From Candidatus Pacebacteria bacterium CG2_30_36_39 (GTDB taxonomy: Bacteria > Patescibacteriota > Microgenomatia > UBA1400 > PJMF01), in assembly GCA_001873435.1 (NCBI GenBank), contig MNZB01000002.1, positions 129,620-193,619 of the forward strand: a DNA stretch of 64,000 nucleotides. The letters run 5' to 3'. The translations under genes were made by a program, and so were the position numbers. The notes beneath the pieces were generated by a model. That model made no database searches. It saw only the letters and a program-made list of their open reading frames with translations, and was not told the origin of the DNA. Positions 29,504-58,084 of this stretch are shown here, piece by piece (positions within the stretch are counted from its first letter, which is position 1; each line of letters starts with the position of its first letter).

Positions 29504-31249
29504 ATGAATAAATTGATTAAGTTTTGTTTTAATTCTACATATTTCAAGTTAATTATAATTTTATTATTTGCGCTATTTTTAAGATTATTTAGATTATCAG
29601 AGTCCCCTCCAAGATTAACTCATGATGAAATGAGTATTGGTTACAATGCTTTTTCTATAATTAAAACTGGCAAGGATGAGTGGGGTAAGATTCTTCCTTT
29701 GGATTTTGAAGCATTTGGTGATCATAAATTACCAGGATACATATATGCATTGGCACCTTTTTTAGCTTTTTTTCAATTGAGTTCGTTTGTTGTTAAAATT
29801 CCATCAATTTTAGCTGGAGTAGCAGTTGTGATTGGTATTTTTTTGATTATAAAAAATCTCACAAAGAATGATTCATTGTCATTGTTTGGTGCTTTGCTAA
29901 TGGCTATAAGTCCTTGGTCAATTCAAATTTCCAGAATGGCGTTGGAATCTCATTTGGCCTTATTATTTTTTATTTTTGGCTTGTATTACTTGCTGACAAT
30001 GTTTGATTTTAAGAAGAATAATACTAAAAATTTTATTTTCAATAACTATAGAGTCATTCTTTCTGCAATTTTACTTGGGTTAACTTCATATTTTTATGTT
30101 GCTTACAGATTAATAACTTTTTTATTAATAATTATTTTATTTATTTTGTCTTTGAAATATGAATTAAATAGAAAAAAAATACTTATTTTTTGTTTATTTT
30201 TTTTAATAATAGTTTCTCCTATCATGCAGCAGATATTTGGCAAATCTGGATCAGCAAGATTTAATCAAATTTCTATGTTTTCTGATGAGGGGATAAATTC
30301 TACTATATTAGAACAACATAATTTTTGTTTTTTGTCACAGCCTAAATTTTTACCAAAAGTTTGTAGATTGATTTATAACAAACCATTTTTGTATGTTGAA
30401 ACCTTTACAAAAAATTACCTAACTTTTATCTTTCCAAGCTTTCTATTTATAAACGGAGATAAATTAGAATATTTAAATAATCCAGGTTTTGGTGAATTTT
30501 ATTTATTTTTGGTGCCATTTTATTTAATTGGTGTTTATGAATGGTTTAAAAAAACTGGCTATAAAGCAAATTTAATTAAAATTTGTTTTTTGATTTCACC
30601 CATTCCGTCTGCGCTAGCTGGTTATCCTCAAATTGTGAGAGGAAGTGCATTACTTCCATTTATTATTTTGTTTATTTCTTTTGGGATTTTTGAAGTATTT
30701 TCTTTAATAAAGAATAGATATTTTAAAATTATGTTTTATTTATTAATAATATTTTTACTATTAATTTCTTTTATTAGATTTTATGTTAGTTATACATATA
30801 TTTATCCGGGTAAATATGAAACAGCCTTTTATCCGTTGTCAGACAAGCTTGTCGCATTTTTAGATAATCAAGAATCTAATTATGACATGATATATTTTGA
30901 TAAAAATTCTTTTCCTGATGCTCATATTCTTATTTCTTTTTATCAAAAAATAGATCCGCTTTGGTATCAAGAAAATATATTACGTCCTATTAATAAGGAT
31001 GGCTTTGGATTTTCTCATCCAACAAAACTTGGAAAATATGAATTTGGGGAAAATATAGTTGATAATTTTATCTGTATGACTGATGACAAACGCAAGATTT
31101 TATATATTACCAATAATTCTCAAATTATTCCTCAATGGAACTTAAAAGATTTTTCTAATGTTCATATTCAAACAAAAATCTATGATATTGATAAAACAAG
31201 AGATGAGCTTAGGAGTAGTAATAAATTTTTAAGCATCTGTCATGATTAG
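29504..31249 (+). CDS. GT39/ArnT/PMT-like GT-C membrane glycosyltransferase, paralog A (581 aa); very AT-rich gene
   Basis: 'RLTHDEMSIGYNAFSIIKTGKDEWGKILPLDFEAFGDHKLPGYIY'. 12 or more TM segments. C-terminal soluble domain. Confidence 0.65.
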   Translation: MNKLIKFCFNSTYFKLIIILLFALFLRLFRLSESPPRLTHDEMSIGYNAFSIIKTGKDEWGKILPLDFEAFGDHKLPGYIYALAPFLAFFQLSSFVVKIPSILAGVAVVIGIFLIIKNLTKNDSLSLFGALLMAISPWSIQISRMALESHLALLFFIFGLYYLLTMFDFKKNNTKNFIFNNYRVILSAILLGLTSYFYVAYRLITFLLIIILFILSLKYELNRKKILIFCLFFLIIVSPIMQQIFGKSGSARFNQISMFSDEGINSTILEQHNFCFLSQPKFLPKVCRLIYNKPFLYVETFTKNYLTFIFPSFLFINGDKLEYLNNPGFGEFYLFLVPFYLIGVYEWFKKTGYKANLIKICFLISPIPSALAGYPQIVRGSALLPFIILFISFGIFEVFSLIKNRYFKIMFYLLIIFLLLISFIRFYVSYTYIYPGKYETAFYPLSDKLVAFLDNQESNYDMIYFDKNSFPDAHILISFYQKIDPLWYQENILRPINKDGFGFSHPTKLGKYEFGENIVDNFICMTDDKRKILYITNNSQIIPQWNLKDFSNVHIQTKIYDIDKTRDELRSSNKFLSICHD

Positions 31250-32942
31250 TATGTCTTTTAAAATTTCAAAGAAAATATTATTGAGTTTAATAGTAGTATT
31301 TTTATTTTCATTATTCATAAGTCGTAGTTTATTTACCAATCTCTTACCAAGAACAGATGATTTAGAACTACATGGAGCTAGGGTGGCAAGCTATTATTTA
31401 GCTTTAAAACAGGGGCAATTACCTGTTTATTGGGGACCAAATTTATATTATGGTTTTGGTTATCCTGTTTTTCTTTTTTCTTATCAATTTCCATATATAT
31501 TGGCAACACTTTTTTATGTCATGGGTTTTAGCATTGAGATTAGTCTCAATATTTTATTAATAATTTTTATAACTATTGGTGGGTTGGGAATTTTCTATCT
31601 TTCATATTTATTAAATAAAAATATTTATTTAGCAATTATTTCGAGTTTTATTTATCAAACATCTCCATACATACTATTAAATACTTTTGTTAGAGGAGCA
31701 TTGGGTGAAATAGCTTTTTTAAGTTTGTTTCCATGGGTTTTTGTCATGCTAATTCTACGTAAGCATGCCAATAAATGGTGGTATCTATTTTTTTCTGTTT
31801 TAATATTTACGAGCTTAATTTTGTCACATCCTGTTTCATTGCTGGTGGCGATGCCAATTATTGTTTTTTGGTTAATATTCAACGGTTATTATTCTGAATT
31901 AAAAAATGTTTTTAAGAATAAAAATAATTTAAATTTTATTTTTAGTTGTTTATTATCAATTGGCATTTCGTCATTTTATTGGATTCCATTTATTTTTGAG
32001 AAAAAAAATATTGTGATAGCTTCTCACAGTATTATTAATAATTTTTCTTTGAGATTTATATCTTTGAGCCAAATATTTTTTTCAAAATGGGGATATGGTG
32101 GAGCAGATTTAACCAAGTTGCATGATGTTTTTCCAGCCACTCTTGGATTTTCTATTATATTTATAGTCATGTATTCATTTTTTAAAATTTTTAATAAATA
32201 TAAACTTAACAAATTAAATAAAACATTTGATAAGAATATATTTTTTTGGTTAATTATTTTTTTTGTTGCTGTTTTTTTGATGTTATCAATATCTATAAAT
32301 ATCTGGAATTTTTCTAAAATTTTGCCATATCTACAATATCCTTGGCGGTTATTTTGGGTTACAGTTTTTTCTGGAGTAATGATCTTGAATAGTTTGAAAA
32401 GTATCAATAGATATTTATTGATACTTTTGTTGCTAATTAGTTTTCACCATGCGATTTATTATGCAAAACCATTAAGCTATATACACAACTCAGATCATGA
32501 CTGGTTGGAATATTTTGGAACTTCAACTTCAGACAATGAACTAAAACCAAAATGGTTTGATGAAAATAAAAATATTGGAATAGAAAATAAGATAGTGTTA
32601 AATTCAGAAAATGATAACAAAAAAATTACCAGCTTATTATGGACTGGAAGTAAAATAAGTTACCAAATATACCTTGAAGAACCAACTCAAGTAATTCAAA
32701 AAACAATGTATTTTCCTGGTTGGGAAGTGTATATAGATGGCAACAAAACCGAGATAGATTATCAAACAGCATCATATCCTGGTAGGATATTGTATTCAGT
32801 TCCACCAGGCAGTCATCAAATTATTAGTAAATTTACTAATAATACTTATCCAAGAAAAATTGGAATTTATTTTACTTTAATTTCTACCTCAACATGGATG
32901 TTATTGGTAATATTCGCTTTTTTTAATAAAAAACTACGCTAA
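31242..32942 (+). CDS. YfhO-like polytopic membrane protein, paralog 2 (566 aa); very AT-rich
   Basis: 'DDLELHGARVASYYLALKQGQLPVYW'. 'FYWIPFIFEKKN'. 'LQYPWRLFW'. C-terminal 'YFPGWEVYIDGNKTE'. Start overlaps the previous gene by 8 nt. Confidence 0.5.
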   Translation: MISMSFKISKKILLSLIVVFLFSLFISRSLFTNLLPRTDDLELHGARVASYYLALKQGQLPVYWGPNLYYGFGYPVFLFSYQFPYILATLFYVMGFSIEISLNILLIIFITIGGLGIFYLSYLLNKNIYLAIISSFIYQTSPYILLNTFVRGALGEIAFLSLFPWVFVMLILRKHANKWWYLFFSVLIFTSLILSHPVSLLVAMPIIVFWLIFNGYYSELKNVFKNKNNLNFIFSCLLSIGISSFYWIPFIFEKKNIVIASHSIINNFSLRFISLSQIFFSKWGYGGADLTKLHDVFPATLGFSIIFIVMYSFFKIFNKYKLNKLNKTFDKNIFFWLIIFFVAVFLMLSISINIWNFSKILPYLQYPWRLFWVTVFSGVMILNSLKSINRYLLILLLLISFHHAIYYAKPLSYIHNSDHDWLEYFGTSTSDNELKPKWFDENKNIGIENKIVLNSENDNKKITSLLWTGSKISYQIYLEEPTQVIQKTMYFPGWEVYIDGNKTEIDYQTASYPGRILYSVPPGSHQIISKFTNNTYPRKIGIYFTLISTSTWMLLVIFAFFNKKLR

Positions 32943-32970: not shown

Positions 32971-33894
32971 TTGCTTTTAATGACCAATAAACTCTCAGTT
33001 CTAATTCACACCAAAGACGTTGCTGAAACATTAGAAAAAACTTTATCATCAGTAAAATTTGCTGATGAAATAGTTATTGTTGACATGGAAAGCTCTGACG
33101 ACACATTGAAAATTGCCAAAAAATATACCAACAACATATTTCATCATGAAGATGTCGGTTATGCTGATCCAGCCCGTAATTTCGCTATTTCCAAGGCTAC
33201 CAACGAATGGATACTAGTAGTTGATGCTGACGAGGTAATCTCTGAAGAACTAAGAGAAATAATTCTAGAAACAATAAACAATAAAGATTCAGCTGATATC
33301 TATCATTTACCTAGAAAAAACTTTGTCTTTAACAAATGGATTATGAAAACAGGTTGGTGGCCAGATTACCAGCCAAGACTATTCCGCAAGGGCACCGTGT
33401 CATGGCAAGTCGGAGTTCATCGTTTACCAGATATGACAGGTACTCAGGAAAAATTTCCAGCTGAAGAAAAATATGCCATAGAACATGCTAATTATATTGA
33501 TACAAGTCATTTTATTAAAAAATTAAATCACTACACATCAATTCAAGCAATTGAGAGATTAGACACTAATAAACAAAACAAAGAACAATATAGTACTAAT
33601 AAACTTTTTGAGATTTTTGCCAACGAACTAGCTAAAAGATCATTAATGATGAATGGCACTGAAGAAGGCTTACATGGAACATCCTTATCATTTCTTCAAG
33701 CTACCTATGAAGCAGTCATATATTTAAAACAATGGGGTGAAACCGGATACAAAGAAACCAAGCCTGAAGATTTTGGAGCAACCCTAAATCATATTCAAAA
33801 AATTTGGCGCTATTGGTGGGCAGACTACAAAGTTAGACATTCATCTGGACTAACATCCATATATTGGAGAATTAGACGTAAGCTTTATTTATAA
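32971..33894 (+). CDS. GT2 glycosyltransferase (GT-A), member of a 3-paralog subfamily in this window
   Basis: 'LSVLIHTKDVAETLEKTLSSVKFADEIVIVDMESSDDT'. 'ILVVDADEV' (DxD). Confidence 0.7.
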   Translation: MLLMTNKLSVLIHTKDVAETLEKTLSSVKFADEIVIVDMESSDDTLKIAKKYTNNIFHHEDVGYADPARNFAISKATNEWILVVDADEVISEELREIILETINNKDSADIYHLPRKNFVFNKWIMKTGWWPDYQPRLFRKGTVSWQVGVHRLPDMTGTQEKFPAEEKYAIEHANYIDTSHFIKKLNHYTSIQAIERLDTNKQNKEQYSTNKLFEIFANELAKRSLMMNGTEEGLHGTSLSFLQATYEAVIYLKQWGETGYKETKPEDFGATLNHIQKIWRYWWADYKVRHSSGLTSIYWRIRRKLYL

Positions 33895-33910: not shown

Positions 33911-35635
33911 TTGATGAAAAAAACACTTTTTTCCAGTAAAAATATTTTTTTATTAATCATTGCTTTATCAATATTTCTTAGATTTTTTAAGCTAGGCTCT
34001 GTTCCTCCAGAATTAAATAGAGATGAAGCTTCTCTTGGATATACAGCCTACTCAATTTTAAAAACAGGTCATGAAGAACATGGAAAATATTGGCCAGTTC
34101 AAATAGAGTCTTTTGGCGATTGGAAATTGCCTTTATATATTTATACATTAATCCCATTTATTACAGTATTTAATTTGGAACCATGGGTAGTGCGCCTTCC
34201 ATCAGCTTTAGCTGGAATTGGTATCGTTGTTGTTAGTAGATTTTTAATTTTGCAGTTATTTAGAGAGAATAAGTATAAAGATAAGCTAGCAGTTCTAGTT
34301 CCGCTATTATTAGCGATTAGTCCCTGGGAAATACACTTTTCTCACGTTGCCTATGAAGCTCATCTGAGTCTGTTTTTCTTTATTTTGGGCTTGCTGGGAA
34401 TTTTAATTGTAAGAAATAAGCTCATTGAACAAAAAATATTTGATTACAAATTATTAACGATATCTATTCTTTCATGTGTTATCACTTTGCTTGGATATCA
34501 TGCCTACCAAGTGTTTATTCCGCTATTTTTAATAGGTCTAGCGGTCTTATCCAGATCAGAAATCAATCAATTGAACAAAGCTTATGGTTTAAAACAAAAA
34601 TTAATACCAATAATTCCTATATTTTTAATTGGATCACTATTATTAATAAGTGGCGTTAATGGAGCAAATAAAACTAAATTTAGTGGACTTTCAATATTTA
34701 ATTTATCTTCATATTCAAATGAGGTCAGCAAAGAAAGAGTTATGTTGGAATCTCCAAATAATCTCTTTTTTGTAGGAGCGATAAATAAGGGATCTGCTTT
34801 CTTGCAAAAAATTCAAGCAAATTTTTTTGATTTAATTTCACCTGATTTCATTTTTACCAAGGGAGGAGTCAATGGTGCTCATAATATTACAGGCTTTGGT
34901 AATTTATATCCCATATTATTTTTTGGTCTAGTAGTTGGATTGGCACAAATAATTATAAGCACAAACTTTAGTTTAAATATCTTAGGAATATGGATATTAG
35001 CAGCTGCAGTAGCTCCAATGATTACTTTTACAGCAAATCACACCACAAGATTCTCACCAGTGTTCTTGTCATTAGAAATATTATCGGTTTATGGATATTT
35101 AGTAATATTTGATTTTTTTAAAAACAAATTGTCTGGTAAACTATTTAAATTATTTATAACGATCTTTGCTATAGGACTATCCTATAGCGCATATTACTTT
35201 TTAATTCACTACTTTTTTATCTTTCCACACAAGGATGCAGTTCGTTGGTCTTGGCAAATGAAACCACTAGTTTTTCAATTGGATGCAATTAAAAATAATT
35301 ATGACAAAGTCATTGTTCAGGATGAACAGAGCTCACCATATATCTACTTTTTATTTTATCTTAAAATTGATCCACTAACCTTATCAAAAAGAATGGAATA
35401 CTACCCAATTGATTCGGAAGGATTCAGGCATGTAAAACGTTTAGACAATATTTATTTTGAAAAAATTAATTGGGAAATAACTAATTATTTAGAAGAAGGC
35501 AGATTGTTTGTAATTTCAGATAAAGAAATACCAGACTACAATCGTTATCACGAAAGATTCTCTCTTCTAACCAGTCTGGAAAATGAATACGTAGAACAAA
35601 AAATTGAGCTTTGGGAGTATGAACCCTTTCACTAG
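33911..35635 (+). CDS. GT39/ArnT/PMT-like GT-C membrane glycosyltransferase, paralog B (574 aa)
   Basis: 'ELNRDEASLGYTAYSILKTGHEEHGKYWPVQIESFGDWKLPLYIY'. Confidence 0.65.
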   Translation: MMKKTLFSSKNIFLLIIALSIFLRFFKLGSVPPELNRDEASLGYTAYSILKTGHEEHGKYWPVQIESFGDWKLPLYIYTLIPFITVFNLEPWVVRLPSALAGIGIVVVSRFLILQLFRENKYKDKLAVLVPLLLAISPWEIHFSHVAYEAHLSLFFFILGLLGILIVRNKLIEQKIFDYKLLTISILSCVITLLGYHAYQVFIPLFLIGLAVLSRSEINQLNKAYGLKQKLIPIIPIFLIGSLLLISGVNGANKTKFSGLSIFNLSSYSNEVSKERVMLESPNNLFFVGAINKGSAFLQKIQANFFDLISPDFIFTKGGVNGAHNITGFGNLYPILFFGLVVGLAQIIISTNFSLNILGIWILAAAVAPMITFTANHTTRFSPVFLSLEILSVYGYLVIFDFFKNKLSGKLFKLFITIFAIGLSYSAYYFLIHYFFIFPHKDAVRWSWQMKPLVFQLDAIKNNYDKVIVQDEQSSPYIYFLFYLKIDPLTLSKRMEYYPIDSEGFRHVKRLDNIYFEKINWEITNYLEEGRLFVISDKEIPDYNRYHERFSLLTSLENEYVEQKIELWEYEPFH

Positions 35636-35643
35636 ACGGTATA

Positions 35644-36573
35644 ATGGGAATTACTATGGAACACGTTACAACTTTAATAGTTAATTACAACACTCCAAAG
35701 GAAACGGACTTAGCCATCCGTTCGGCTGTCAATGCCACCGCTAATGGCTTTATTCATCGGGTAATAGTCATTGATAACGGCTCCAAAGAACCACTCAAAA
35801 TAGCCAAGGACCTGCAAAATAAAAATATTGAATTAATCCGTAGTGAATCAAACTTAGGATTTACTGGTGGTAACAACCTAGGCATGAGTCATGCAGTTAA
35901 AAACTATCAAACCGACTATTTTTTCCTGCTAAATTCAGATGCAGAAGTTGAAAAAGAAGGCATCCAGAAACTTTATGAATCAATTAAAGATGATCCTAAG
36001 GCTGGAATTGCTGTTTCTAAAATCTACTTTACCCCAGGACTAGAATTTCATCGTCGTAGCTACTCTAGAGCCGAAAAAGGTAAGATCTTATGGTACGCCG
36101 GCGGTAGCATTGATTGGCCAAATCTAGTGGCATATCATCGTGGTGTAGATGAAGTAGATCGTGGCCAATTTGATCAACAAACTACTTGTGATTTTGCCAC
36201 TGGTTGCGCACTTTTTGTTAAAAGAGTTGTTACCGAACACATTGGTATTCTAGACAAAAGATTTTTCCTATATTCAGAAGACGTGGATTTTAGTTTAAGA
36301 GCCAAAGAAGCTGGATACAGAATTGTGTTTGTACCAGAATCAATTGTCTGGCATATGAACGGAGGATCTATTGCAGGAGGTGCCGGATCAAAATTGCAAC
36401 AATATTATCAAACTCGCAATAGAATCTTGATTTCAGCTTTACACGGAACTTGGAGAAACAAACTTACTGCACTTAGGTTTGCTACACAAACTTTTTTACA
36501 TGGCAGTGATGCTGAGCGCAAGGGAGTTATGGATTTCTTTTTAATGCGTTTTGGCAAACAACCAATTGTTTAA
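35644..36573 (+). CDS. GT2 glycosyltransferase (rhamnosyltransferase-like, Glyco_tranf_2_3 type)
   Basis: 'TLIVNYNTPKETDLAIRS...VIVIDNGS'. 'LLNSDAEV'. 'FATGCALFVKR'. Confidence 0.7.
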   Translation: MGITMEHVTTLIVNYNTPKETDLAIRSAVNATANGFIHRVIVIDNGSKEPLKIAKDLQNKNIELIRSESNLGFTGGNNLGMSHAVKNYQTDYFFLLNSDAEVEKEGIQKLYESIKDDPKAGIAVSKIYFTPGLEFHRRSYSRAEKGKILWYAGGSIDWPNLVAYHRGVDEVDRGQFDQQTTCDFATGCALFVKRVVTEHIGILDKRFFLYSEDVDFSLRAKEAGYRIVFVPESIVWHMNGGSIAGGAGSKLQQYYQTRNRILISALHGTWRNKLTALRFATQTFLHGSDAERKGVMDFFLMRFGKQPIV

Positions 36574-43281: not shown

Positions 43282-43282
43282 A

Positions 43283-45460: not shown

Positions 45461-45468
45461 TAAAACAG

Positions 45469-47362: not shown

Positions 47363-47380
47363 GGGTTTTTCTGCTACCAT

Positions 47381-50751: not shown

Positions 50752-51527
50752 AAAAAATATCAGTGGTTTTGGCTACTTATAATGAGGAAAAAAATCTAAA
50801 TATGTGTTTGGATTCAGTCGTTGATTTGGCTGATGAGATCATTGTGGTTGATGGTAGTTCTACTGATAGAACTAGGGAAATTGCTCAAGAATACAAGGCA
50901 AAAGTTATTAAAACTACTAATAAACCAAATTTTCATATCAATAAACAAATGGCGATGGATAAGGCAACTGGAGAGATTATTCTTCAATTGGATGCAGATG
51001 AAGTTGTTGACCATGATTTAAAGAAGTTTATTAGAAGTTTGGCAAAGTTTTCTGATCTAACTAAGCTTTCTGAAGTGGCGTGGTGGGTGCCTAGAAAAAA
51101 TTTGTTCCTAGGCAGATGGTTGACTAAAGGTGGGCAATATCCAGATCCAGTTATTAGATTGTATTTAGCCAATAAAGCTCGCTTGCCACAAAAAGATGTG
51201 CATGAGCAGATGCAGGTTGATGGAGAAGTTGGTTGGGCCAAAGGTCATCTTTTGCATTACTCCAATCCTTCATTTACAGATTACATGCGTAAGTTCAATA
51301 CTTATACTTCTTTTAAGGCTCAGCAATGGGCTGATGAGGGTAAAAGGGCTCAGTGGTGGGGAATTGGCTATTATATGATTTGGTTGCCTTTACTTACTTT
51401 TTTGAAGTTATATCTAAGACATCGTGGTTATGTAGATGGTTATCCAGGGTTTGTTTTTGCTTTGATGAGTGGTTTGCATTTTAGTATTGCCTATTTGAAA
51501 CTGTGGGAGCTTCAGCAAAAATTATGA
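50724..51527 (+). CDS. GT2 glycosyltransferase, paralog of 32971 and 36551
   Basis: 'ISVVLATYNEEKNLNMCLDSVVDLADEIIVVDGSSTDRT'. 'ILQLDADEV'. C-terminus 'LKLWELQQKL'. Confidence 0.7.
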   Translation: MADSWINFMKKISVVLATYNEEKNLNMCLDSVVDLADEIIVVDGSSTDRTREIAQEYKAKVIKTTNKPNFHINKQMAMDKATGEIILQLDADEVVDHDLKKFIRSLAKFSDLTKLSEVAWWVPRKNLFLGRWLTKGGQYPDPVIRLYLANKARLPQKDVHEQMQVDGEVGWAKGHLLHYSNPSFTDYMRKFNTYTSFKAQQWADEGKRAQWWGIGYYMIWLPLLTFLKLYLRHRGYVDGYPGFVFALMSGLHFSIAYLKLWELQQKL

Positions 51528-52573
51528 AAGTTTTAATGGATGTTCAACCCCTATCTTCTGGTCACGCAGTGCGTGGAGTAGGGATGTATACCAGATTTCT
51601 ATTGCAGGCTTTGGAAAAATTGGAGAATAAGAATGATTTTGAGATTTTTAGGTCTGGGTTAGAAGATCCAAGCAAAGTGGATATTGTTCATTATCCTTTT
51701 TTTGATTTATTTTTTCCCACACTCCCCTTTCGTCGAAAGGGGAAAACGGTGGTGACTATTCATGATGTGATACCTCTTTTATTTCCAGAGCGTTATCAGC
51801 CAGGTAAAAAAGGCAAGATTGTTTTTCTTAGACAAAAGTTAGCCTTAAAAACTATTGATGCAATAATTACTGATTCTCATGCTTCGAAGAAGGATATTGT
51901 TTTTCATTTGGGTGTACCAGCAGAAAAGGTTCACGTAGTTTATCTAGCAGCCAATCCTTATTTGCAGCCAATAAATGATTCTCAGGCTGATGTTTTGCGT
52001 AAAAAATTGGGTTTGCCAAAGACTTATGTTTTGTATGTTGGAGATATTAATTATAATAAAAATGTGCCGCAATTGATTAAGGCACTCAAGTATCTACCTC
52101 GTCATGTTAATTTGGTGTGTGTGGGTAAGAATTTTGTTGAACAAGATATTCCTGAGTGGAAAGAGCTTGCTGCTCAGGTGGCATTGAGTGATGTGGCTGA
52201 TAGAGTTAAGTTTGTGTCTGATGTTTTGTCTGATGATTATGAAACTTTGGCTGGTATTTATTCTGGTGCTTTGGTTTATGTTCAACCTTCGTTATATGAG
52301 GGTTTTGGTTTGCCGATTTTGGAGGCGATGCGTTGTAAGACTCCAGTGATTGTAGCTAAGAATTCTTCAATGAAGGAGATTGGTGGTGAAGTAGCTATTT
52401 TTAGTGGGACTGAGGCTGAGGATTTTGCTGAAGGGATTGAGGGGGTTTTGAATTTGTCAGATAATAAGAGAGAAGAAATGATTAGTAGGGCAAGTAAGTG
52501 GGAAAAGCAGTTTACTTGGGATAAGACAGCAAGAGAGACAAAGAAAATCTATCAATTAATGTTAGAGAAATAA
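51503..52573 (+). CDS. GT4 (GT-B) glycosyltransferase
   Basis: 'EGFGLPILEAMRCKTPVIVAKNSSMKEIGGE'. Confidence 0.75.
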   Translation: MGASAKIMKVLMDVQPLSSGHAVRGVGMYTRFLLQALEKLENKNDFEIFRSGLEDPSKVDIVHYPFFDLFFPTLPFRRKGKTVVTIHDVIPLLFPERYQPGKKGKIVFLRQKLALKTIDAIITDSHASKKDIVFHLGVPAEKVHVVYLAANPYLQPINDSQADVLRKKLGLPKTYVLYVGDINYNKNVPQLIKALKYLPRHVNLVCVGKNFVEQDIPEWKELAAQVALSDVADRVKFVSDVLSDDYETLAGIYSGALVYVQPSLYEGFGLPILEAMRCKTPVIVAKNSSMKEIGGEVAIFSGTEAEDFAEGIEGVLNLSDNKREEMISRASKWEKQFTWDKTARETKKIYQLMLEK

Positions 52574-52577: not shown

Positions 52578-54284
52578 ATGTTTAACTGTGGGTTTGGCAA
52601 AAATATTATTGGGCATAAGAAGTTTTTATTAACTATTTTGTTGGTTGTTGGTTTGCCTTTTTTAGCTTTGGTTAAACCATATTTTCATCTTGGAGTTCCC
52701 TATACTCATGATGGTGAAAATCATTTGGCTCGTTTTGCTAATTATAAGATTGCTCTTAAAGAAGGTCAGTTTCCGCCTAGATTTGCTCCTAATTTAAATA
52801 ATCACTATGGTTATCCTGTTTTTAACTATAATTATCCACTAGCTAATATTTTGTCTTTGCCTTTTAGTTTGGTTGGTTTTTCTTATGAAATAACTTTTAA
52901 GTTGTTGATGGTTTTTTCGTTGGTTTCTGGGGTGACTGGTATATTCTATTGGTTGGGATCATTAAAGATTGGGTCAGTTCAAACTAGGTTGTTGGCAGGG
53001 GTGAGCCTTTTATTAGCTCCTTTTACTATCAATTTGATTTATGTGAGGGGTAGTGTTGGCGAGATGATGATGCTGGGTATTTTTCCTTGGTTGCTATGGT
53101 TGGTTCACGAGATTAGAGAAGCTGTTAAAGCAAAAAGGCAGTTGTCGTGGTTGGTTAGTACTACTATTTTAGTGGCTTTTCTTTTGGCACATAATATTTC
53201 AGTGCTTTTTGGCGGAGTTATTTGGTTTGTTTATTGTTTGGTGATATTTGGTAAGGATAAGAGGTCTTGGAGGTTATGGTTGGTTAGGAGTTTGTTGGCT
53301 TTTGGTATGACGCTGTGGTTTTGGTTGCCGGCTTTGGCTGAGAAGAATGAGGTGATTTTGGATCAGGCGAGTTTGTCTTCTCAGTATAGTAATCATTTTG
53401 TGAGGTTGATGCAGTTAATAGTTTCTCCGTTGCAGTTTGGTTATTCTTTTGCGGCTCCAGTGGATACGATGAGTTTGGCTGTGGGGTTGAGTGGGTTGTT
53501 GGGTTTAGTAATTTTTGTTTTGTTGCTGATTAAGAATAAGCAGATTAAAAAAGATTATCCATTGTCTGTTGGTTTGGTGGTGATTGGTTTGTTTTTGTTG
53601 TTTTTGCAAACTGAGTATTCTGTTTTTATTTGGAAGGTTGTTCCTTTGGTTTCTTTTATTCAGTTTCCTTGGCGTTTGAGTTTGTTTTTCGTTGTTTTGG
53701 TTTTGCCTTTGCTTGCTATCGTGATGGATTATAGTAGGTTCTGGAAATATGTTTTTATTCTTGTTTTGGGTGTTCAGTTTCATAGTTTATTACAGCTTCA
53801 ACCAGCTGATTATTTGCATAAAGAAAAGGTTGAGTATGATCTTTTTTCTCAAAGTACTAGTACGGCAAATGAGAATCTTCCAAAGAATTTTACATATTCT
53901 AATTTTGCAGATTGGTCTCCTGCTCCAGTGGTTCTGGACGGAGATGCGAGTGTGTTGGTGAGTAAATGGTCTGGTACAGAAAAAAAATATTCTGTTGTTG
54001 TTAATAATAAATCACTGGTTGTAGAACCAACTATGTATTTTTTGGGTTGGCAGACTGAGGTGAATGATAAGTTAGTTTCTTATGCGCAGATGAAAGAGAC
54101 ACAGGGTAGAATTGGTTATTGGCTTGAGCCTGGTACTTATCAGGTTAAAACTATTTTTACTCAAAAGACTTGGGCTAGAAGAGTTGGTAATGGCTTGAGC
54201 ATTTTTAGTACGATGATTGCTAGTTGGTATATTGTCCATGAGCTCTATCAATGGAGAAAGAGATGTGCCGAAGCTGCCTTATAG
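52578..54284 (+). CDS. YfhO-like polytopic membrane protein, paralog 3 (568 aa)
   Basis: 'YTHDGENHLARFANYKIALKEGQFPPRF'. 'FWLPALAEKNEV'. 'IQFPWRLSLFF'. C-terminal 'YFLGWQTEVNDKLV'. Confidence 0.5.
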   Translation: MFNCGFGKNIIGHKKFLLTILLVVGLPFLALVKPYFHLGVPYTHDGENHLARFANYKIALKEGQFPPRFAPNLNNHYGYPVFNYNYPLANILSLPFSLVGFSYEITFKLLMVFSLVSGVTGIFYWLGSLKIGSVQTRLLAGVSLLLAPFTINLIYVRGSVGEMMMLGIFPWLLWLVHEIREAVKAKRQLSWLVSTTILVAFLLAHNISVLFGGVIWFVYCLVIFGKDKRSWRLWLVRSLLAFGMTLWFWLPALAEKNEVILDQASLSSQYSNHFVRLMQLIVSPLQFGYSFAAPVDTMSLAVGLSGLLGLVIFVLLLIKNKQIKKDYPLSVGLVVIGLFLLFLQTEYSVFIWKVVPLVSFIQFPWRLSLFFVVLVLPLLAIVMDYSRFWKYVFILVLGVQFHSLLQLQPADYLHKEKVEYDLFSQSTSTANENLPKNFTYSNFADWSPAPVVLDGDASVLVSKWSGTEKKYSVVVNNKSLVVEPTMYFLGWQTEVNDKLVSYAQMKETQGRIGYWLEPGTYQVKTIFTQKTWARRVGNGLSIFSTMIASWYIVHELYQWRKRCAEAAL

Positions 54285-55440
54285 AAAAATATTATCTGCT
54301 GTAATTATTTGGCGGTTGAGTTTGTTTTTTGTTGGTTGGCTGGCGACCTTTATCTTGTCTTATAGTCCAAGCTTTCCTTATGCTAAAGAAATTCTCAATT
54401 CAATGGGTTTGCCCCGTTGGGTTTCTGCCTGGGGAGGCTTTGATGGAGTGCATTATTTGACTATAGCTTCTAAAGGATATTTTGGGACTGCTTTTATTCA
54501 GGCGTTTTTCCCAGTTTTTCCTTTGCTCATTAGTTTTATTCAGCATTTCTTTGTTTATAAACTGTTAAGTTTTGTGATGATTCTAGTGTTTCAAGTGATA
54601 ATTCTTTATTTTCTTTTGATTCTTTTTATGTCTTTGATAAATATTGATAAGAAAAGCAATGTTTCATATTGGTCTGTTGTTGCTTTGCTTTTCTTTCCAA
54701 CCAGTTTTTTCTTTGGAGCGATTTATGGGGAAGGAATTTTTCTCTTTTTTATCTTTGCTAGCTTATTAGCTGCTAGAAAAAGATATTGGTGGGTAGCTGG
54801 TTTGTTTGGGGCTTTTGCCAGTGCCACTAGGATTGTGGGAGTTGCTATTTGGCCAGCTCTTTTAATTGAGCTTTGGTTACAACAAAGTAAGACTGAGGTG
54901 ACAGTTGAAAATATTGTTTCTTTTATTAAGATTTTTCAGCTTAAGATCTTGGCGGTTTCCCTTAGTTTTCTAGGGCTATTTATCTATATGTTCTATTTGT
55001 GGAAAAATTTTAATGATCCCTTATATTTTTTTCATGTTCAGAGTCTGTTCGGGGCAGGTAGAGAAAGCAGTATTGTGTTGTTGCCACAGGTGGTTTGGCG
55101 ATATTTTAAGATCCTAACAACAGTGCCTTTTGACCTAAAGTTTTATGCTTATCTACAGGAGTTTGCTGTTAGTATGTTGTTTTTGGGGTTGTTGGTGTTT
55201 TGCTGGAAAAAGATTAGGTTTTCATATTTAGTTTTTTCTGTTTTAGTTTATTTGCTGCCTACTCTTACTGGTACATTTTCTAGTATGCCTAGGTATGTGT
55301 TGGTTTGTTTTCCTGTTTTCATTTTAATTGGGGAGTGGCTGAGTAAATATCCAAAGATTAGGCCATACTATTTTTTTATCAGTGGTCTATTTGCTGTGGT
55401 TAATACAATTCTCTTTATTCAGGGTTATTGGGTGGCTTAG
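54217..55440 (+). CDS. PIG-V / GT-C mannosyltransferase-like membrane protein. The likely start is GTG at 54265, preceded by 'ggaga'; the track start overlaps the upstream gene by 68 nt.
   Basis: 'WGGFDGVHYLTIASKGY' matches the PIG-V family signature (W.FD..HF..IA..GY). 9 or more TM segments. Confidence 0.5.
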   Translation: MLVGILSMSSINGERDVPKLPYRKILSAVIIWRLSLFFVGWLATFILSYSPSFPYAKEILNSMGLPRWVSAWGGFDGVHYLTIASKGYFGTAFIQAFFPVFPLLISFIQHFFVYKLLSFVMILVFQVIILYFLLILFMSLINIDKKSNVSYWSVVALLFFPTSFFFGAIYGEGIFLFFIFASLLAARKRYWWVAGLFGAFASATRIVGVAIWPALLIELWLQQSKTEVTVENIVSFIKIFQLKILAVSLSFLGLFIYMFYLWKNFNDPLYFFHVQSLFGAGRESSIVLLPQVVWRYFKILTTVPFDLKFYAYLQEFAVSMLFLGLLVFCWKKIRFSYLVFSVLVYLLPTLTGTFSSMPRYVLVCFPVFILIGEWLSKYPKIRPYYFFISGLFAVVNTILFIQGYWVA

Positions 55441-56192: not shown

Positions 56193-56359
56193 AAAGAGCT
56201 GGTTTGTTTGGTTGAAAACGATGCTTTTTCGTTAGAAACAAGCAAACCACCAGACTATATTATCTCATAATATATTGTTATTTACAATATTTGGCTGTTC
56301 TTCTACTGACAAGAGAGTGGGAGTTGAATATAATTAAAAATTAGGTTTAACTCGAGATT

Positions 56360-58084
56360 ATGCAATTATTTAAAAATACCGTTATTTCTTGGTTCTTAAA
56401 AAATAAATATTTATTTTTTGTTTTTGTTTTGGGAGTATTCTTGAGGTTTTACAATCTGGGAAATATGCCCATAGCTACTCATTTGGATGAGATTATGAAT
56501 GGTTATGTCGGAAAATTTACTATTCTTAATGGTGTTGATTTGTATGGTAATAAATGGCCAATTTTTTATTTTAATAATTTTGGTGATTACCCAAATATTA
56601 TGCCGATGTATTTATCTGGTTTATCGGCAATTATTTTTGGTAATACTGAGTTTGCAATTAGATTTCCTATTGCTCTCTTTGGTGGTTTGACAATTTTATT
56701 AATTTATTTTTTAACTAAATATTTATTTAATGATAATAAAATTGCTCTTTTTAGCAGTCTAACTATAGCAATTATGCCTTGGCATATTGTTCTTTCTAGG
56801 GCAACGGCTGAGGGGGTAACTGCGAGTTTTATATTTTTGTTGGCTATATATCTATTAATTAAGGATCAAGTTAAAAAGATTTCAATTACAACTATGATTT
56901 CGTTGTTTTTATTGCTTTTTACTTATTTGCTTTATCCTTCATTTAGAATTATTACGCCGCTGGCTGTTGTGCCGCTTTTTCTTTTAACTCAGCAAAGAGC
57001 CAAAAAAATATTATTTATTGTTTTTGCCTTATTATCACTTGGTGTAACTGTATATATCAGTCAATTGCCAGCTGGTAAGGGTCGTTTCGAGCAAACTAGT
57101 ATTATTAGCCAGAATAGTCCGATTCTTCCTTATCAAAGCGAGTTTATTAGTGGTGAGGGATTTGATAATGCTTTTAAAGCTAGATTGCTATTCAATAAGC
57201 CGGTGATGTTTGGTAGGGAATTTCTTAAGCAATATACTTCATATTTTTCTACAAGCTTTCTTTTTAGTGAGGGTGGATTGCCAAAGAGGTATTTTGTTCC
57301 AGACCAGGGAGTTTGGTACTATTCTTATTTGGGTATTTTTATTTTGTTCGTTGGTTTATTAATAATATTTCCTGATAGATTATCCAAATTTTATGAAAGT
57401 ATTTTGGTTAATAAGCAAAATAAGGCGAATGTTGTCTATTTAATTTATTTAACTTTGGTTTCTTTGGTTCCAGCTGCTATGACCTATGAAGATTCTCCCA
57501 ATGTTCATCGAGCTAGTTTGTTTCCGTTGTTTTTAAGTATTTGGAGTGGTTTATTTTTTATATTTCTAAGTAAGATTAGATATCGTAAATTTAGTTATCT
57601 TGCTTTTATTTTATTTGTTTCTATTTTTTTAGAGGCAATGTTTTTTTGGAATAAGTATCTTGTTCATGCAAATAAATATCAGGAGATTTATCGCAATGGT
57701 GCTTCTAAGAATCTAGTGGAATATTTGAATTCTCATAAAAATAGTTATGACCATATTTATGTTTCTGGTAGAAATGATATTCCTCTTTACTATCCTTTTT
57801 TCAACAATATTTATGATAGGGAGTTGAGTAATAGATTTGAGTTGGGTATGAGGTTGAAGGAGATTGATAATATTAGATTAACTGATGATGATTGTTTTGC
57901 TGATTTTTTTAGAGAAATTGAGAGTGTTAATACCTCTGATTTATATATAATGGGTTCTAATTGTATAATTGATTATGAGCAGTTGATTAAAAAGAGTTTA
58001 GAGTTGACTAAAAAAGATATTATTTATACTAAACAGGGTAATGAGGAATTAGCTACTTTTACTCTGGAGGCTATTAGTAAATAG
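56360..58084 (+). CDS. GT39/ArnT/PMT-like GT-C membrane glycosyltransferase, paralog G (574 aa, divergent)
   Basis: 'IATHLDEIMNGYVGKFTILNGVDLYGNKWPIFYFNNFGDYPNIMPMY'. Confidence 0.6.
   Translation: MQLFKNTVISWFLKNKYLFFVFVLGVFLRFYNLGNMPIATHLDEIMNGYVGKFTILNGVDLYGNKWPIFYFNNFGDYPNIMPMYLSGLSAIIFGNTEFAIRFPIALFGGLTILLIYFLTKYLFNDNKIALFSSLTIAIMPWHIVLSRATAEGVTASFIFLLAIYLLIKDQVKKISITTMISLFLLLFTYLLYPSFRIITPLAVVPLFLLTQQRAKKILFIVFALLSLGVTVYISQLPAGKGRFEQTSIISQNSPILPYQSEFISGEGFDNAFKARLLFNKPVMFGREFLKQYTSYFSTSFLFSEGGLPKRYFVPDQGVWYYSYLGIFILFVGLLIIFPDRLSKFYESILVNKQNKANVVYLIYLTLVSLVPAAMTYEDSPNVHRASLFPLFLSIWSGLFFIFLSKIRYRKFSYLAFILFVSIFLEAMFFWNKYLVHANKYQEIYRNGASKNLVEYLNSHKNSYDHIYVSGRNDIPLYYPFFNNIYDRELSNRFELGMRLKEIDNIRLTDDDCFADFFREIESVNTSDLYIMGSNCIIDYEQLIKKSLELTKKDIIYTKQGNEELATFTLEAISK

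What the first reader, a model, noticed from the sequence alone, without database searches (positions are those of the whole stretch)
29504..58084. Seven paralogous GT39/ArnT-like genes and a repeated gene-order module suggest segmental duplication
All seven proteins share the N-terminal signature R-x-DE-[AM]-x-[IL]-[GA]-Y-x-[AG]-[YF]-[SA]-I...FGD[YWH]K. They are 29504, 33911, 39372, 40964, 47381, 49096 and 56360, each 530-580 aa. The block 47381-52573 (GT-C, GT-C, 'WELQQK' GT2, GT4) mirrors the order seen in 33911-38512 (GT-C, GT2, 'WELQQK' GT2, GT4). Each block is accompanied by one YfhO-like gene. The three 'WELQQK' GT2 paralogs (32971, 36551, 50724) and three YfhO paralogs (23543, 31242, 52578) reinforce a duplicated-module picture. 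Gene starts overlap by 1-30 nt throughout, consistent with tightly coupled operons.
Basis: seen in the sequence. Interest (0 to 1): 0.6.

Follow-up and report, generated by a model that had tools for sequence, protein, structure and literature searches.

The report
Ancient GT-C glycosyltransferase paralogues, Pacebacteria
The seven membrane glycosyltransferase genes are real but very old paralogues in a conserved cell-surface sugar-polymer locus of an uncultured Pacebacteria (CPR) bacterium, and the evidence does not support a duplicated block of genes.

Summary
The seven genes are true paralogues, 22-37% identical pairwise. They form one subfamily of GT-C-fold membrane glycosyltransferases. 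An AlphaFold model (pLDDT 95.8) matches STT3/PglB, Pmt4 and ArnT at TM about 0.5. By sequence, ArnT is the only solved relative (E=0.002).

The window comes from 'Candidatus Pacebacteria bacterium CG2_30_36_39'. It carries at least 14 GT-C-type genes, together with sugar-nucleotide genes, a polyprenyl-phosphate-sugar synthase, a MOP flippase, an LCP transferase, and GT2 and GT4 enzymes.

Segmental duplication is not supported:
- There is no nucleotide similarity between the blocks beyond a 76-nt motif.
- Each GT-C copy sits in its own orthologue clade (bootstrap 89-100, 61 for 47381) with members from up to seven other genomes.
- Nodes between clades are unresolved (bootstrap 61 or less).
- The two GT4 genes are not specifically related.
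- The GT2 trio is unresolved.
- Only one pair (31242/52578) groups moderately, and it lies at non-equivalent positions.

Both 'blocks', with ArgRS between them, are collinear in relatives whose orthologues are 47-84% identical. The copies are therefore old, and each keeps its own near-invariant active-site loop. This is an uncharacterised but ordinary member of a known kind. Interest is modest.

The parts
29504..31249 (+). GT-C paralogue 1 (581 aa). Clade signature THDEMSIGYNA[FY]SI...FGDHK. Low GC, 0.256.
   Evidence: (PMT_2 32.5 bits). Orthologues at 57-60% identity in other Pacebacteria. Own clade with bootstrap 89-98. GC.
33911..35635 (+). GT-C paralogue 2 (574 aa). Signature NRDEASLGYTAYSI...FGDWK. 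Has FSH where the other copies have FSR.
   Evidence: No Pfam hit of its own, but 668 bits to the family HMM. Clade bootstrap 98-100.
39372..40967 (+). GT-C paralogue 3 (531 aa). Signature TWDEAAIGYNGYA...FGDYKAP.
   Evidence: (PMT_2 42.3 bits). Clade bootstrap 100. Orthologues at 59-68% identity in L005, L009, L011 and L013.
40964..42664 (+). GT-C paralogue 4 (566 aa). Signature YWEEVALGYDAYSI...FGDWKPS, with EE in place of DE conserved across its whole clade.
   Evidence: Clade bootstrap 97-98, including a Microgenomatus member (L014, 43% identity).
47381..49099 (+). GT-C paralogue 5 (572 aa). Signature YWDEIAILVDARSV...YGDYK. Lies directly downstream of ArgRS.
   Evidence: Best profile partner is 40964, on the other side of ArgRS (hhalign 492). 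Orthologues at 57-65% identity.
49096..50751 (+). GT-C paralogue 6 (551 aa). Signature NRDEAALAYNAYLL...FGDYK. The 120 best homologue clusters are all at 39% identity or more.
   Evidence: AlphaFold model with pLDDT 95.8 and pTM 0.94. Foldseek matches to STT3, AglB, PglB, Pmt4 and ArnT with E 1e-8 to 6e-6 and TM about 0.5.
56360..58084 (+). GT-C paralogue 7 (574 aa), the most divergent copy. Signature HLDEIMNGYVGKFT...FGDYPNI. Patchy distribution among relatives.
   Evidence: (PMT_2 36.8 bits). A 65% orthologue is present in L009 but no orthologue was found in the L013 or L011 loci.
23543..25327 (+). Second GT-C family (AftD/PTPS-related type), copy A, 594 aa.
   Evidence: PMT_2 27.9 bits. Own clade with bootstrap 100.
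31242..32942 (+). Second GT-C family, copy B, 566 aa.
   Evidence: Pfam PTPS_related 36.8 bits. Own clade with bootstrap 100. Groups with 52578 in 145 of 200 replicates.
52578..54284 (+). Second GT-C family, copy C, 568 aa. Architecture: GT-C membrane domain, then a beta-sandwich (451-527), then a C-terminal TM helix.
   Evidence: AlphaFold pLDDT 90.4. Best PDB fold match is AftD 6w98 at E 2.9e-4. Weak Pfam GT-C_AftD hit.
54217..55440 (+). PIG-V/Gpi18-like GT-C membrane protein (407 aa). Fused to the 52578-type protein in some relatives.
   Evidence: Pfam Mannosyl_trans2 23.4 bits against a cut-off of 22.4. Residues 558-924 of P0416 (924 aa) are 44% identical to it.
32971..33894 (+). Soluble GT2 (GT-A fold), copy 1 of the GT2 trio. 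Its C-terminal motif is WGETGYK, not WELQQK.
   Evidence: (no TM segment).
36551..37408 (+). Soluble GT2, copy 2 of the trio (WELQQK at residue 256).
50724..51527 (+). Soluble GT2, copy 3 of the trio (WELQQK at residue 261).
35644..36573 (+). GT2 of a different subfamily (rhamnosyltransferase- or GlfT1-like weak hits). Distant paralogue of 38509.
38509..39375 (+). GT2 of that other subfamily.
37409..38512 (+). GT4 (GT-B fold) glycosyltransferase. Not specifically related to 51503.
   Evidence: Against 51503: 22% identity, 28.9 bits and hhalign score 41.
51503..52573 (+). GT4 glycosyltransferase.
25332..26825 (+). MOP (Wzx-type) flippase for a lipid-linked glycan.
   Evidence: Pfam Polysacc_synt_3 145 bits. 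NCBIfam MOP flippase and O-glycosylation flippase models, both below cut-off.
26828..28171 (+). Polytopic membrane protein (about 12-14 hydrophobic segments) with no family match. Possibly a polymerase or ligase, or another GT-C.
   Evidence: Weak similarity to the N-terminus of 56360. Conserved in L005 at 60% identity.
22338..23468 (-). LCP (LytR-CpsA-Psr) glycopolymer transferase.
   Evidence: Pfam 104.6 bits. NCBIfam TIGR00350 94 bits against a cut-off of 62.3.
28289..29143 (-). Pro/Thr/Ser-rich surface protein with a TM segment and a C-terminal LPQTG sortase signal. Candidate glycosylation acceptor.
   Evidence: Conserved in L005 at 58% identity.
15058..16230 (-). GT2 fused to a GtrA-like TM domain. 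Candidate polyprenyl-phosphate-sugar synthase, the donor supplier for the GT-C enzymes.
   Evidence: Pfam GT2 plus GtrA_DPMS_TM. Best NCBIfam hits are PgfS, AglJ, ArnC, PpgS and a Dol-P-hexose transferase, all below cut-off.
9882..15051 (-). Further GT-C genes 9882-11432 and 13474-15051 (PMT_2), 11466-12704 (weak MptA-like), and GT2 12707-13465.
16236..22125 (-). Sugar-nucleotide genes: GDP-mannose 4,6-dehydratase, an epimerase/reductase, UDP-Glc/GDP-Man dehydrogenase, RmlD-like and RmlB-like. TrmD lies on the + strand in between.
45596..47362 (+). Arginyl-tRNA synthetase embedded between the two 'blocks'. A housekeeping gene, not part of the pathway. Its position is conserved in relatives.
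   Evidence: Same position in L009, L011 and L013, and adjacent to GT-C genes in L008.
58096..59019 (+). NAD-dependent sugar epimerase/dehydratase following paralogue 7.
   Evidence: Orthologues at 73-80% identity.

Best explanation
The seven genes are anciently diverged paralogues of one subfamily of GT-C-fold, polyprenyl-phosphate-sugar-dependent membrane glycosyltransferases, so far named only from Patescibacteria. The subfamily has the ArnT/PMT/STT3 structural class. The genes sit in a roughly 50-kb cell-envelope glycan locus of 'Candidatus Pacebacteria bacterium CG2_30_36_39'.

The copies arose by old gene duplications before the sampled Pacebacteria diverged. The strongest, though weak, affinities are between neighbouring genes, which hints at tandem duplication. 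Each copy has since been kept as a separate orthologue with its own near-invariant first extracytoplasmic loop. They are therefore non-redundant enzymes, and the locus is not the product of a block duplication.

Inferred mechanism:
1. Cytoplasmic GT2 and GT4 enzymes build a lipid-linked primer from nucleotide sugars made by the adjacent Rml/Gmd/Ugd-type genes.
2. The MOP flippase exports the primer.
3. The GT2-GtrA fusion, and possibly GT2 12707, charge polyprenyl phosphate with single sugars.
4. The 14 or more GT-C enzymes each add one particular sugar or linkage outside the membrane. The conserved D/E-E acidic pair at the start of the first external loop acts as the catalytic or metal-binding site.
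5. The LCP enzyme attaches the product to peptidoglycan, or to the neighbouring LPXTG Ser/Thr/Pro-rich protein.

Shown: paralogy, fold, age, synteny and paralogue-specific motifs. Inferred: donor, acceptor, order of steps and the final product.
For: Paralogy and a distinct subfamily.

Fold: the AlphaFold model has pLDDT 95.8. Foldseek hits are STT3, AglB, PglB, Pmt4, ArnT, DPY19, Emb and AftA. PMT_2 is above cut-off in 5 of 7. ArnT 5ezm is the only solved relative by profile (E=0.0024).

Age: orthologues at 47-68% identity exist in other genomes for every copy, against at most 37% between copies. Each copy has its own clade (bootstrap 92-100; 89-100, except 61 for 47381 once the distant L012 and L014 members are added). 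Clades 29504, 40964, 47381 and 49096 include a Microgenomatus member.

Synteny: window 19.5-59 kb is collinear with L005+L013, L009 and L011, including ArgRS.

No recent duplication: the nucleotide self-comparison finds only 76 nt at 79% identity.

Paralogue-specific loop motifs are conserved across genomes.

Pathway context: LCP, MOP flippase, GT2-GtrA, sugar-nucleotide genes, GT2 and GT4.

Family size: 5,903 representative clusters at E<=1e-30. Every hit that carries an organism name is Patescibacteria.
Against: - Trees are neighbour-joining on Kimura distances, not maximum likelihood. Deep nodes are unresolved and the root shifts between runs, so an ancient block duplication cannot be excluded.
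- Two families give weak cross-block signals: 31242/52578 and the top profile score for 36551/50724.
- No initiating phosphoglycosyltransferase was seen in the window.
- No member of this subfamily has been characterised, and no solved structure is close. Donor, acceptor and product are inference from family knowledge.
- Two of the seven lack any Pfam hit.
- Only eight related loci were sampled.
Confidence: 0.72

Rival explanations
1. An ancient segmental duplication copied a module (GT-C, GT2, GT4 and an AftD-like GT-C) before the Pacebacteria radiated. Gene replacement, loss and rearrangement have since erased most of the signal.
For: The same family order GT-C ... GT2-GT4 occurs twice. 31242 and 52578 are the closest pair of their trio (hhalign 452 against about 340; 145 of 200 rooted replicates). 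36551 and 50724 have the highest profile score of the GT2 trio (213 against 181 and 155) and share an exact WELQQK.
Against: - No GT-C pairing between the blocks. 33911's best partners are 40964 and 29504, and 47381's best partner is 40964.
- The GT4 genes are not specifically related.
- The rooted GT2 tree recovers 36551+50724 in only 11 of 200 replicates.
- WELQQK is a family motif that varies within the 50724 clade.
- The one supported pair is not collinear: 31242 lies upstream of block 1 and 52578 lies downstream of block 2.
- In Microgenomatus (L014) four family members sit in a tandem array next to a single GT2-GT2-GT2-GT4 set.
Confidence: 0.15
2. The paralogues were acquired independently by horizontal transfer rather than by duplication within the lineage.
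For: Per-gene GC is uneven: 29504 is 0.256, 31242 is 0.262 and 56360 is 0.293, against 0.335 for the window. 56360 has a patchy distribution.
Against: The seven form one subfamily clearly apart from the other GT-C genes of the same window. Every close homologue that carries an organism name is Patescibacteria or Microgenomates. The copies lie in tandem arrays, and both the order and the orthologues are conserved across relatives.
Confidence: 0.05
3. A functional alternative. The GT-C enzymes act mainly as PMT-like protein O-glycosyltransferases and glycan extenders on Ser/Thr/Pro-rich surface proteins encoded in the locus, not on a peptidoglycan-linked polysaccharide.
For: A DE motif in loop 1 and PMT/PMT_2 hits. 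28289(-) encodes an LPQTG-anchored protein with long PT/S tracts, lies directly upstream of 29504 and is conserved in L005. 44387 encodes a lipobox protein with a Thr/Pro-rich linker. Fold hits include the peptide-modifying GT-Cs STT3, PglB, Pmt and DPY19.
Against: - Pfam PMT (PF02366) is below cut-off, and there is no MIR or PMT_4TMC domain.
- There is no WWDYG motif.
- The locus has the full set for a wall polysaccharide: MOP flippase, LCP, GT2/GT4 and rhamnose-pathway genes.
- 44387 is not conserved in relatives.
Confidence: 0.25

Closest known systems
ArnT (CAZy GT83; undecaprenyl-phosphate-L-Ara4N:lipid A transferase; PDB 5ezm/5f15)
   Same: GT-C_A fold. Similar size, about 550 aa, with a small C-terminal extracytoplasmic domain. 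An acidic motif at the start of the first periplasmic loop. The only solved protein found by sequence profile (E=0.0024). Foldseek TM 0.51-0.53. Pfam PMT_2.
   Different: 12-13% identity. No NCBIfam ArnT model hit. The organism has no lipid A (CPR bacteria lack an outer membrane; from the literature). There are seven paralogues plus other GT-C genes instead of one gene in an arn operon.
Protein O-mannosyltransferases (GT39; Pmt1/2/4, Mycobacterium tuberculosis PMT)
   Same: A DE-type acidic pair in loop 1 and a polyprenyl-phosphate-sugar-dependent GT-C fold. Automated annotation calls these genes 'glycosyltransferase family 39'. Ser/Thr/Pro-rich secreted proteins are encoded nearby.
   Different: Pfam PMT is below cut-off (19.2 and 16 bits against 22.7). 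There is no MIR domain and no PMT_4TMC. Full-length structural overlap is seen only with C. thermophilum Pmt4 (9i5k, TM 0.49-0.53). Other PMT entries align over about 270 columns.
Oligosaccharyltransferases STT3/AglB/PglB (GT66)
   Same: The best Foldseek E-values (1e-8 to 3e-7, TMq 0.51-0.54).
   Different: No WWDYG motif. The C-terminal domain is about 90-140 aa rather than several hundred. 11-14% identity.
Mycobacterial and corynebacterial cell-wall GT-C set (EmbA/B/C, AftA-D, MptA-C, PimE) with Lcp1
   Same: Many different GT-C enzymes in one organism, each making one linkage outside the membrane from polyprenyl-phosphate sugars, with an LCP ligase attaching the polymer to peptidoglycan. 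The second family here (52578) is structurally closest to AftD. 11466 weakly hits MptA. This is the best analogy for how the locus works.
   Different: No orthology. The enzymes here are much smaller and are clustered in one locus. The sugars are unknown. The host is a small-genome CPR bacterium.
YfhO/GtcA/CsbB-type teichoic-acid glycosylation and GtrABC O-antigen modification
   Same: The same three-part logic: a GT2 polyprenyl-phosphate-sugar synthase, a GtrA-type flippase domain and a GT-C transferase.
   Different: No Pfam YfhO hit for the three 'YfhO-like' genes. The GT2 trio next to them is soluble and not of the GtrB/CsbB type.
Actinomyces oris LcpA-GspA (LCP-dependent glycosylation of a sortase substrate)
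   Same: An LCP gene (22338) and an LPXTG Ser/Thr-rich protein (28289) lie in one glycan locus.
   Different: The resemblance is recalled from general knowledge and was not tested here. No homology to GspA was examined.

Membership tests
GT-C superfamily (GT-C_A structural class) | Polytopic N-terminal membrane domain with the GT-C_A helix arrangement | tested here: met
   AlphaFold model of 49096 with pLDDT 95.8. Foldseek probability 1.00 to STT3, AglB, PglB, Pmt4, ArnT, DPY19, Emb and AftA, with TM about 0.5. Hydropathy finds 7-13 hydrophobic segments in all seven.
GT-C superfamily (GT-C_A structural class) | Conserved acidic residue(s) in the first extracytoplasmic loop | tested here: met
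   E42 is invariant. The preceding residue is D in six copies and E in 40964. D51/E52 are at least 90% conserved over 91 sequences. The pair sits at the start of helix 50-65, after TM1. That these residues are catalytic is inference.
GT-C superfamily (GT-C_A structural class) | Uses a polyprenyl-phosphate-linked sugar donor | not testable with these tools
   Only context is available: a GT2-GtrA fusion at 15058-16230(-) resembles PgfS, ArnC, PpgS and Dol-P-hexose synthases, all below cut-off.
CAZy GT39 / Pfam PMT (protein O-mannosyltransferase) | PF02366 PMT domain above the gathering threshold | tested here: not met
   19.2 bits (29504) and 16 bits (56360) against a cut-off of 22.7. No hit in the other five.
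CAZy GT39 / Pfam PMT (protein O-mannosyltransferase) | PMT_4TMC C-terminal module, and a MIR domain in eukaryotic members | tested here: not met
   No PF16192 or MIR hit in any of the seven at E<=0.01.
ArnT / PMT_2 (PF13231; GT83-like) | PF13231 above the gathering threshold | tested here: inconclusive
   Met by 29504, 39372, 47381, 49096 and 56360 (30-42 bits against a cut-off of 26.1). Not met by 33911 or 40964. PF13231 is a broad model, so it does not show ArnT function.
ArnT / PMT_2 (PF13231; GT83-like) | Specific similarity to characterised ArnT | tested here: inconclusive
   Profile against PDB: 5ezm at E=0.0024, 19.9 bits, covering 160 residues only. E=0.84 with the 7-sequence profile. 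No NCBIfam ArnT hit for 29504.
STT3/PglB/AglB oligosaccharyltransferase (GT66) | WWDYG motif in a large C-terminal domain | tested here: not met
   No WWD[YWF]G in any of the seven. The C-terminal soluble part is only about 90-140 aa.
YfhO family (PF09586), for 23543/31242/52578 | Match to the YfhO profile | tested here: not met
   No PF09586 hit at E<=5. The hits are PTPS_related (36.8 bits, 31242), PMT_2 (27.9 bits, 23543) and GT-C_AftD (19.9 bits, 52578). Only one distant orthologue has a 'weak' precomputed YfhO hit. The best fold match is AftD.
Segmental (block) duplication | Paralogues from the two blocks form congruent sister pairs | tested here: not met
   GT-C: none. GT4: none. GT2: the proposed pair is recovered in 5.5% of replicates. 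AftD-like: one pair at 72.5%.
Segmental (block) duplication | Collinear order of the paired genes and residual nucleotide similarity | tested here: not met
   The only supported pair (31242/52578) is at non-equivalent positions. blastn between the blocks finds only 76 nt at 79% identity.

The most novel reading that the evidence does not exclude
Pacebacteria, and probably the wider Microgenomates group, may devote about 14 or more extracytoplasmic GT-C enzymes in one conserved locus to building a defined, complex surface heteroglycan. These include seven one-to-one conserved paralogues, each with its own invariant active-site loop. The logic would match the mycobacterial arabinogalactan/lipomannan assembly line. 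The product would be attached by an LCP enzyme to peptidoglycan or to an LPXTG Ser/Thr-rich stalk protein. If so, a large share of a roughly 1-Mb symbiont genome encodes an ancestral surface glycan that could be central to host attachment.
Probability: 0.35. Interest if true: 0.55.

Novelty: new member of a known kind. Interest (0 to 1): 0.3.

Why it matters
CPR/Patescibacteria cell envelopes are almost uncharacterised. This locus shows that a small-genome Pacebacteria keeps at least 14 GT-C-type transferases, which is more than 20 kb of coding sequence in one 64-kb window. It also shows that the seven focal paralogues are each conserved, with private active-site motifs, across the lineage. 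That points to a structurally defined surface glycan, not a variable capsule.

The subfamily is large: 5,903 representative clusters at E<=1e-30. It has no characterised member and no close structure, so it is a reasonable target for structural and biochemical work. As genome biology, though, it is an ordinary ancient gene family in a polysaccharide cluster. The 'segmental duplication' angle that made it stand out does not hold.

Tried and rejected
- A recent or segmental duplication was tested in four ways, and all were negative or unresolved: a nucleotide self-comparison, neighbour-joining trees with outside orthologues, outgroup-rooted replicate trees, and clade profile-profile scores.
- GtrB/CsbB-type identity for the 'WELQQK' GT2 trio was rejected. 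The three proteins have no TM segments and only generic GT2 hits.
- The search for related loci with the 7-paralogue alignment failed because no stretch was conserved enough. The single-protein scan of genome contigs returned only two loci.
- A PDB sequence search with the 7-sequence profile gave no meaningful hit. The AftD-like family profile gave none either.
- Literature searches for GT-C, GT39 or mannosyltransferase expansions in CPR, Patescibacteria or Pacebacteria found nothing relevant. Méheust et al. 2019 (PMC6744442) mention only membrane-localised hypothetical families enriched in Microgenomates, sortase enrichment and a Gram-positive-like envelope. Wang et al. 2023 (PMC10633639) do not mention glycosyltransferases.
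- The promoter and terminator scan of 40-60 kb was not above shuffled expectation, so operon boundaries were not resolved.

Full report
**Observation**

ORFs of 531-581 aa exist at all seven stated positions. All 21 pairwise BLASTP comparisons are significant (E 1e-17 to 4e-53, 22-37% identity). An HMM built from the seven scores them at 576-678 bits. The next ORF in the window, another GT-C at 9882-11432(-), scores only 26.7 bits. The seven therefore form one distinct subfamily.

Their alignment (A1) has 15 invariant columns, including E42 and G72-D73. 'R-x-DE' should be 'R-DE', and only 33911 and 49096 have that R. 40964 has EE, 47381 has YGDYK and 56360 has FGDYP.

The GT2 trio (27-29% identity) and the 23543/31242/52578 trio (26-28%) are also real paralogues. 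'WELQQK' is present in 36551 and 50724 only. None of the 'YfhO-like' proteins hits Pfam YfhO even at E<=5. Nine of the 15 short junctions between 29504 and 55440 overlap, by 4-68 nt with longest-ORF starts. The other six have gaps of 0-28 nt, and four larger gaps exist.

**Source and context**

The 49096 product is 100% identical to a protein of 'Candidatus Pacebacteria bacterium CG2_30_36_39'. The exact ArgRS protein occurs on metagenome contigs of up to 245 kb. The organism is thus a CPR/Patescibacteria bacterium of the Microgenomates group.

The window is largely one glycan locus. On the minus strand it holds:
- GT-C genes 9882 and 13474 (PMT_2), and an MptA-like membrane protein at 11466;
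- GT2 12707;
- a GT2-GtrA fusion at 15058, whose best NCBIfam hits are PgfS, AglJ, ArnC, PpgS and a Dol-P-hexose transferase;
- GDP-mannose dehydratase, an epimerase, a UDP-Glc/GDP-Man dehydrogenase, and RmlD- and RmlB-like genes;
- an LCP glycopolymer transferase at 22338.

On the plus strand it holds:
- a MOP flippase at 25332 and a 12-14-segment membrane protein at 26828;
- the seven GT-C genes and three AftD/PTPS-related GT-C genes;
- a PIG-V-like GT-C at 54217;
- five GT2 genes, two GT4 genes and an epimerase.

At least 14 genes in the window have sequence evidence for a GT-C-type protein.

**What the proteins are**

A 91-sequence alignment (A2) gave an AlphaFold model of 49096 with pLDDT 95.8 and pTM 0.94. 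The model has a helical membrane domain up to about residue 446 and a small alpha/beta C-terminal domain.

Foldseek against the PDB returned only GT-C enzymes at the top: STT3, AglB and PglB (E 1e-8 to 3e-7, TMq 0.51-0.54), C. thermophilum Pmt4, ArnT (TMt 0.53), DPY19, Emb, AftA and ALG9. By sequence, ArnT 5ezm is the only solved glycosyltransferase reached (E=0.0024 with the deep profile; E=0.84 with seven sequences).

Other tests:
- Pfam PMT_2 passes its cut-off in five of seven. Pfam PMT does not pass in any.
- There is no WWDYG motif.

'GT39/ArnT-like' is therefore right at the superfamily level. Membership of GT39, GT83 or GT66 is not established.

The second family was modelled on 52578 (pLDDT 90.4). 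It is a GT-C membrane domain followed by a beta-sandwich and a C-terminal TM helix. Its best fold match is mycobacterial AftD (E 2.9e-4).

**Test of segmental duplication**

1. *Nucleotides.* blastn of 29.5-42.7 kb against 47.4-58.1 kb, and of the window against itself, finds only 76 nt at 79% identity (29664-29739 against 49286-49361). This stretch encodes the DE loop.

2. *Relatives.* Loci from eight other genomes were fetched.
   - L005+L013 (one MAG, Candidatus Paceibacterota SI047_bin131), L009, and L011 (which carries P0131, a protein also found in Pacebacteria GW2011_GWB1_47_8) hold reciprocal-best orthologues of most window genes between 19.5 and 59 kb. These are in the same order at 47-84% identity, with ArgRS in the same place between the two 'blocks'.
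   - 43619, 44387 and 55518(-) have no orthologue in these loci.
   - More distant genomes (L007, L008, L012, L014) have rearranged arrays of the same families.

3. *Trees.*
   - In neighbour-joining trees with 100 bootstraps (38 and 44 sequences, about 517 columns), each window GT-C falls in its own clade with outside members. Bootstrap is 92-100. It is 89-100, except 61 for 47381 once the distant L012 and L014 members are added.
   - The nodes joining clades have bootstrap 2-61, and the root position changes between runs.
   - Four clades (29504, 40964, 47381, 49096) include a Microgenomatus member.
   - The AftD-like and GT2 trios behave the same way, with three clades of bootstrap 100 each.

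4. *Pairing.*
- Clade profile-profile scores put 40964-47381 first (492), then 33911-40964 (471). 40964 and 47381 are neighbours across ArgRS.
   - The GT4 genes score 41 with each other, less than either scores with the unrelated GT4 at 61785.
   - With an outgroup, the GT2 trio resolves as 32971+36551 in 56% of 200 replicates, 32971+50724 in 38% and 36551+50724 in 5.5%. The profile score nonetheless favours 36551-50724, so the trio is unresolved.
   - Only 31242+52578 are moderately supported (72.5%), and they are not at equivalent positions.

In short, all duplications are old, no congruent block pairing exists, and the repeated 'order' reduces to one GT2-GT4 adjacency whose GT4 members are not specifically related.

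**Functional divergence**

Across orthologues that are only 47-68% identical overall, each clade keeps a nearly invariant and clade-specific first-loop sequence. Examples are 'YWEEVALGYDAYSI...FGDWKPS' in the 40964 clade, 'NRDEAALAYNAYLL...FGDYKLP' in the 49096 clade and 'HLDEIMNGYVGKFT...FGDYPNI' in the 56360 clade. This is what would be expected if each paralogue has its own donor or acceptor specificity and none is redundant.

**Most likely mechanism**

This part is inferred from established knowledge of GT-C enzymes, MOP flippases, GtrB/ArnC/DPM1-type synthases and LCP ligases.

1. Soluble GT2 and GT4 enzymes assemble a lipid-linked primer in the cytoplasm.
2. The MOP flippase exports it.
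3. The GT2-GtrA protein supplies polyprenyl-phosphate monosaccharides.
4. The GT-C enzymes extend and branch the glycan outside the membrane, one linkage type each.
5. The LCP enzyme attaches the product to peptidoglycan.

The closest working analogy is the mycobacterial arabinogalactan/lipomannan machinery, without orthology.

A real alternative is protein O-glycosylation. Directly upstream of 29504, on the other strand, 28289-29143 encodes a Pro/Thr/Ser-rich protein with a TM segment and a C-terminal LPQTG sortase signal. It is conserved in L005. 44387 encodes a lipobox protein with a Thr/Pro-rich linker.

**Novelty and interest**

Public pipelines already label these genes 'glycosyltransferase family 39', 'ArnT family' or 'phospholipid carrier-dependent glycosyltransferase'. 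The subfamily is large: 5,903 representative clusters at E<=1e-30 and 13,172 at 1e-10. No member has been characterised and no structure is close. I found no paper describing the expansion in CPR.

It is a new, uncharacterised member of a known kind. The specific evolutionary claim is not supported. Interest is modest.

**Limits**

- Trees are distance-based.
- ORF starts are the longest possible.
- Only eight related loci were examined.
- Donor, acceptor and product are untested.

Noticed in passing
window 28289-29143 (-): Encodes a 284-aa protein with an N-terminal Pro-rich region, one TM segment, Cys-rich stretches, long PT/QPT repeats, a 16-residue poly-Ser run and a C-terminal LPQTG sortase sorting signal. 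GC is 0.455 against 0.335 for the window. It is conserved at the same position in L005 (58% identity). It is a plausible glycosylation acceptor next to the LCP and GT-C genes.
   Followed up: partly
window 44387-45460 (+): A 357-aa protein with a lipobox-like LPAC signal and a Thr/Pro-rich linker. GC is 0.478. It has no Pfam hit and is not conserved in the relatives' loci. With 43619-44188 it fills the gap between GT-C 40964 and ArgRS.
   Followed up: partly
window 52578-54284 and 54217-55440; P0416 and similar proteins: The AftD-like GT-C and the downstream PIG-V/Gpi18-like membrane protein overlap by 68 nt here (longest ORFs). In about 15 of the 120 best homologue clusters they are fused into single proteins of 917-951 aa. 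Residues 558-924 of P0416 are 44% identical to 54217. This is a Rosetta-stone hint that the two act together.
   Followed up: partly
window 45596-47362 (+); L008, L009, L011, L013: The arginyl-tRNA synthetase gene is embedded between GT-C genes. It keeps that position in several Pacebacteria whose orthologues are only 60-77% identical.
   Followed up: partly
window 29504-32942 and 59032-62969: Per-gene GC is very uneven. 29504 is 0.256 and 31242 is 0.262. 59032, 60656, 61263 and 61785(-) are 0.18-0.24, and 55518(-) is 0.525, against a window mean of 0.335. The 59-63 kb genes (a 14-segment membrane protein, a TIG-domain protein, a 6-TM protein and a GT4) have no orthologues in the relatives' loci. 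This may be a variable or acquired end of the locus.
   Followed up: no
window 56360-58084 (+): The seventh GT-C paralogue has a 65% orthologue in L009, but no orthologue was found in the L013 and L011 loci. It is preceded by a 919-nt gap that contains a high-GC reverse-strand ORF (55518-56126) and an 11-of-12 promoter-like site at 56306-56334.
   Followed up: partly
window 32397-32428, 32820-32843, 14055-14078: Near-perfect or perfect palindromes of 24-32 nt lie inside coding sequence (31242 and 13474). They appeared as inverted self-hits in the self-blast.
   Followed up: no
window 43286-43308 and 45469-45495: Two strong GC-rich hairpins (9 and 11 pairs) with T-runs. The first lies in the 954-nt gap after 40964 and the second between 44387 and ArgRS. 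They may be terminators. The overall count of such sites is not above shuffled expectation.
   Followed up: no
window 22083-22116 vs 58099-58132: A 34-nt stretch at 88% identity is shared between the 5' ends of two SDR sugar epimerase/dehydratase genes on opposite strands (21112-22125(-) and 58096-59019(+)). It probably encodes the shared Rossmann GxxGxxG motif of these 31%-identical paralogues.
   Followed up: no
P0001 vs P0121: The exact 29504 protein was recorded on one contig, with ten sequence variants in its 90% cluster. The exact 49096 protein is on 28 contigs with five variants. This suggests more strain-level variation at the low-GC 29504 end of the locus.
   Followed up: no
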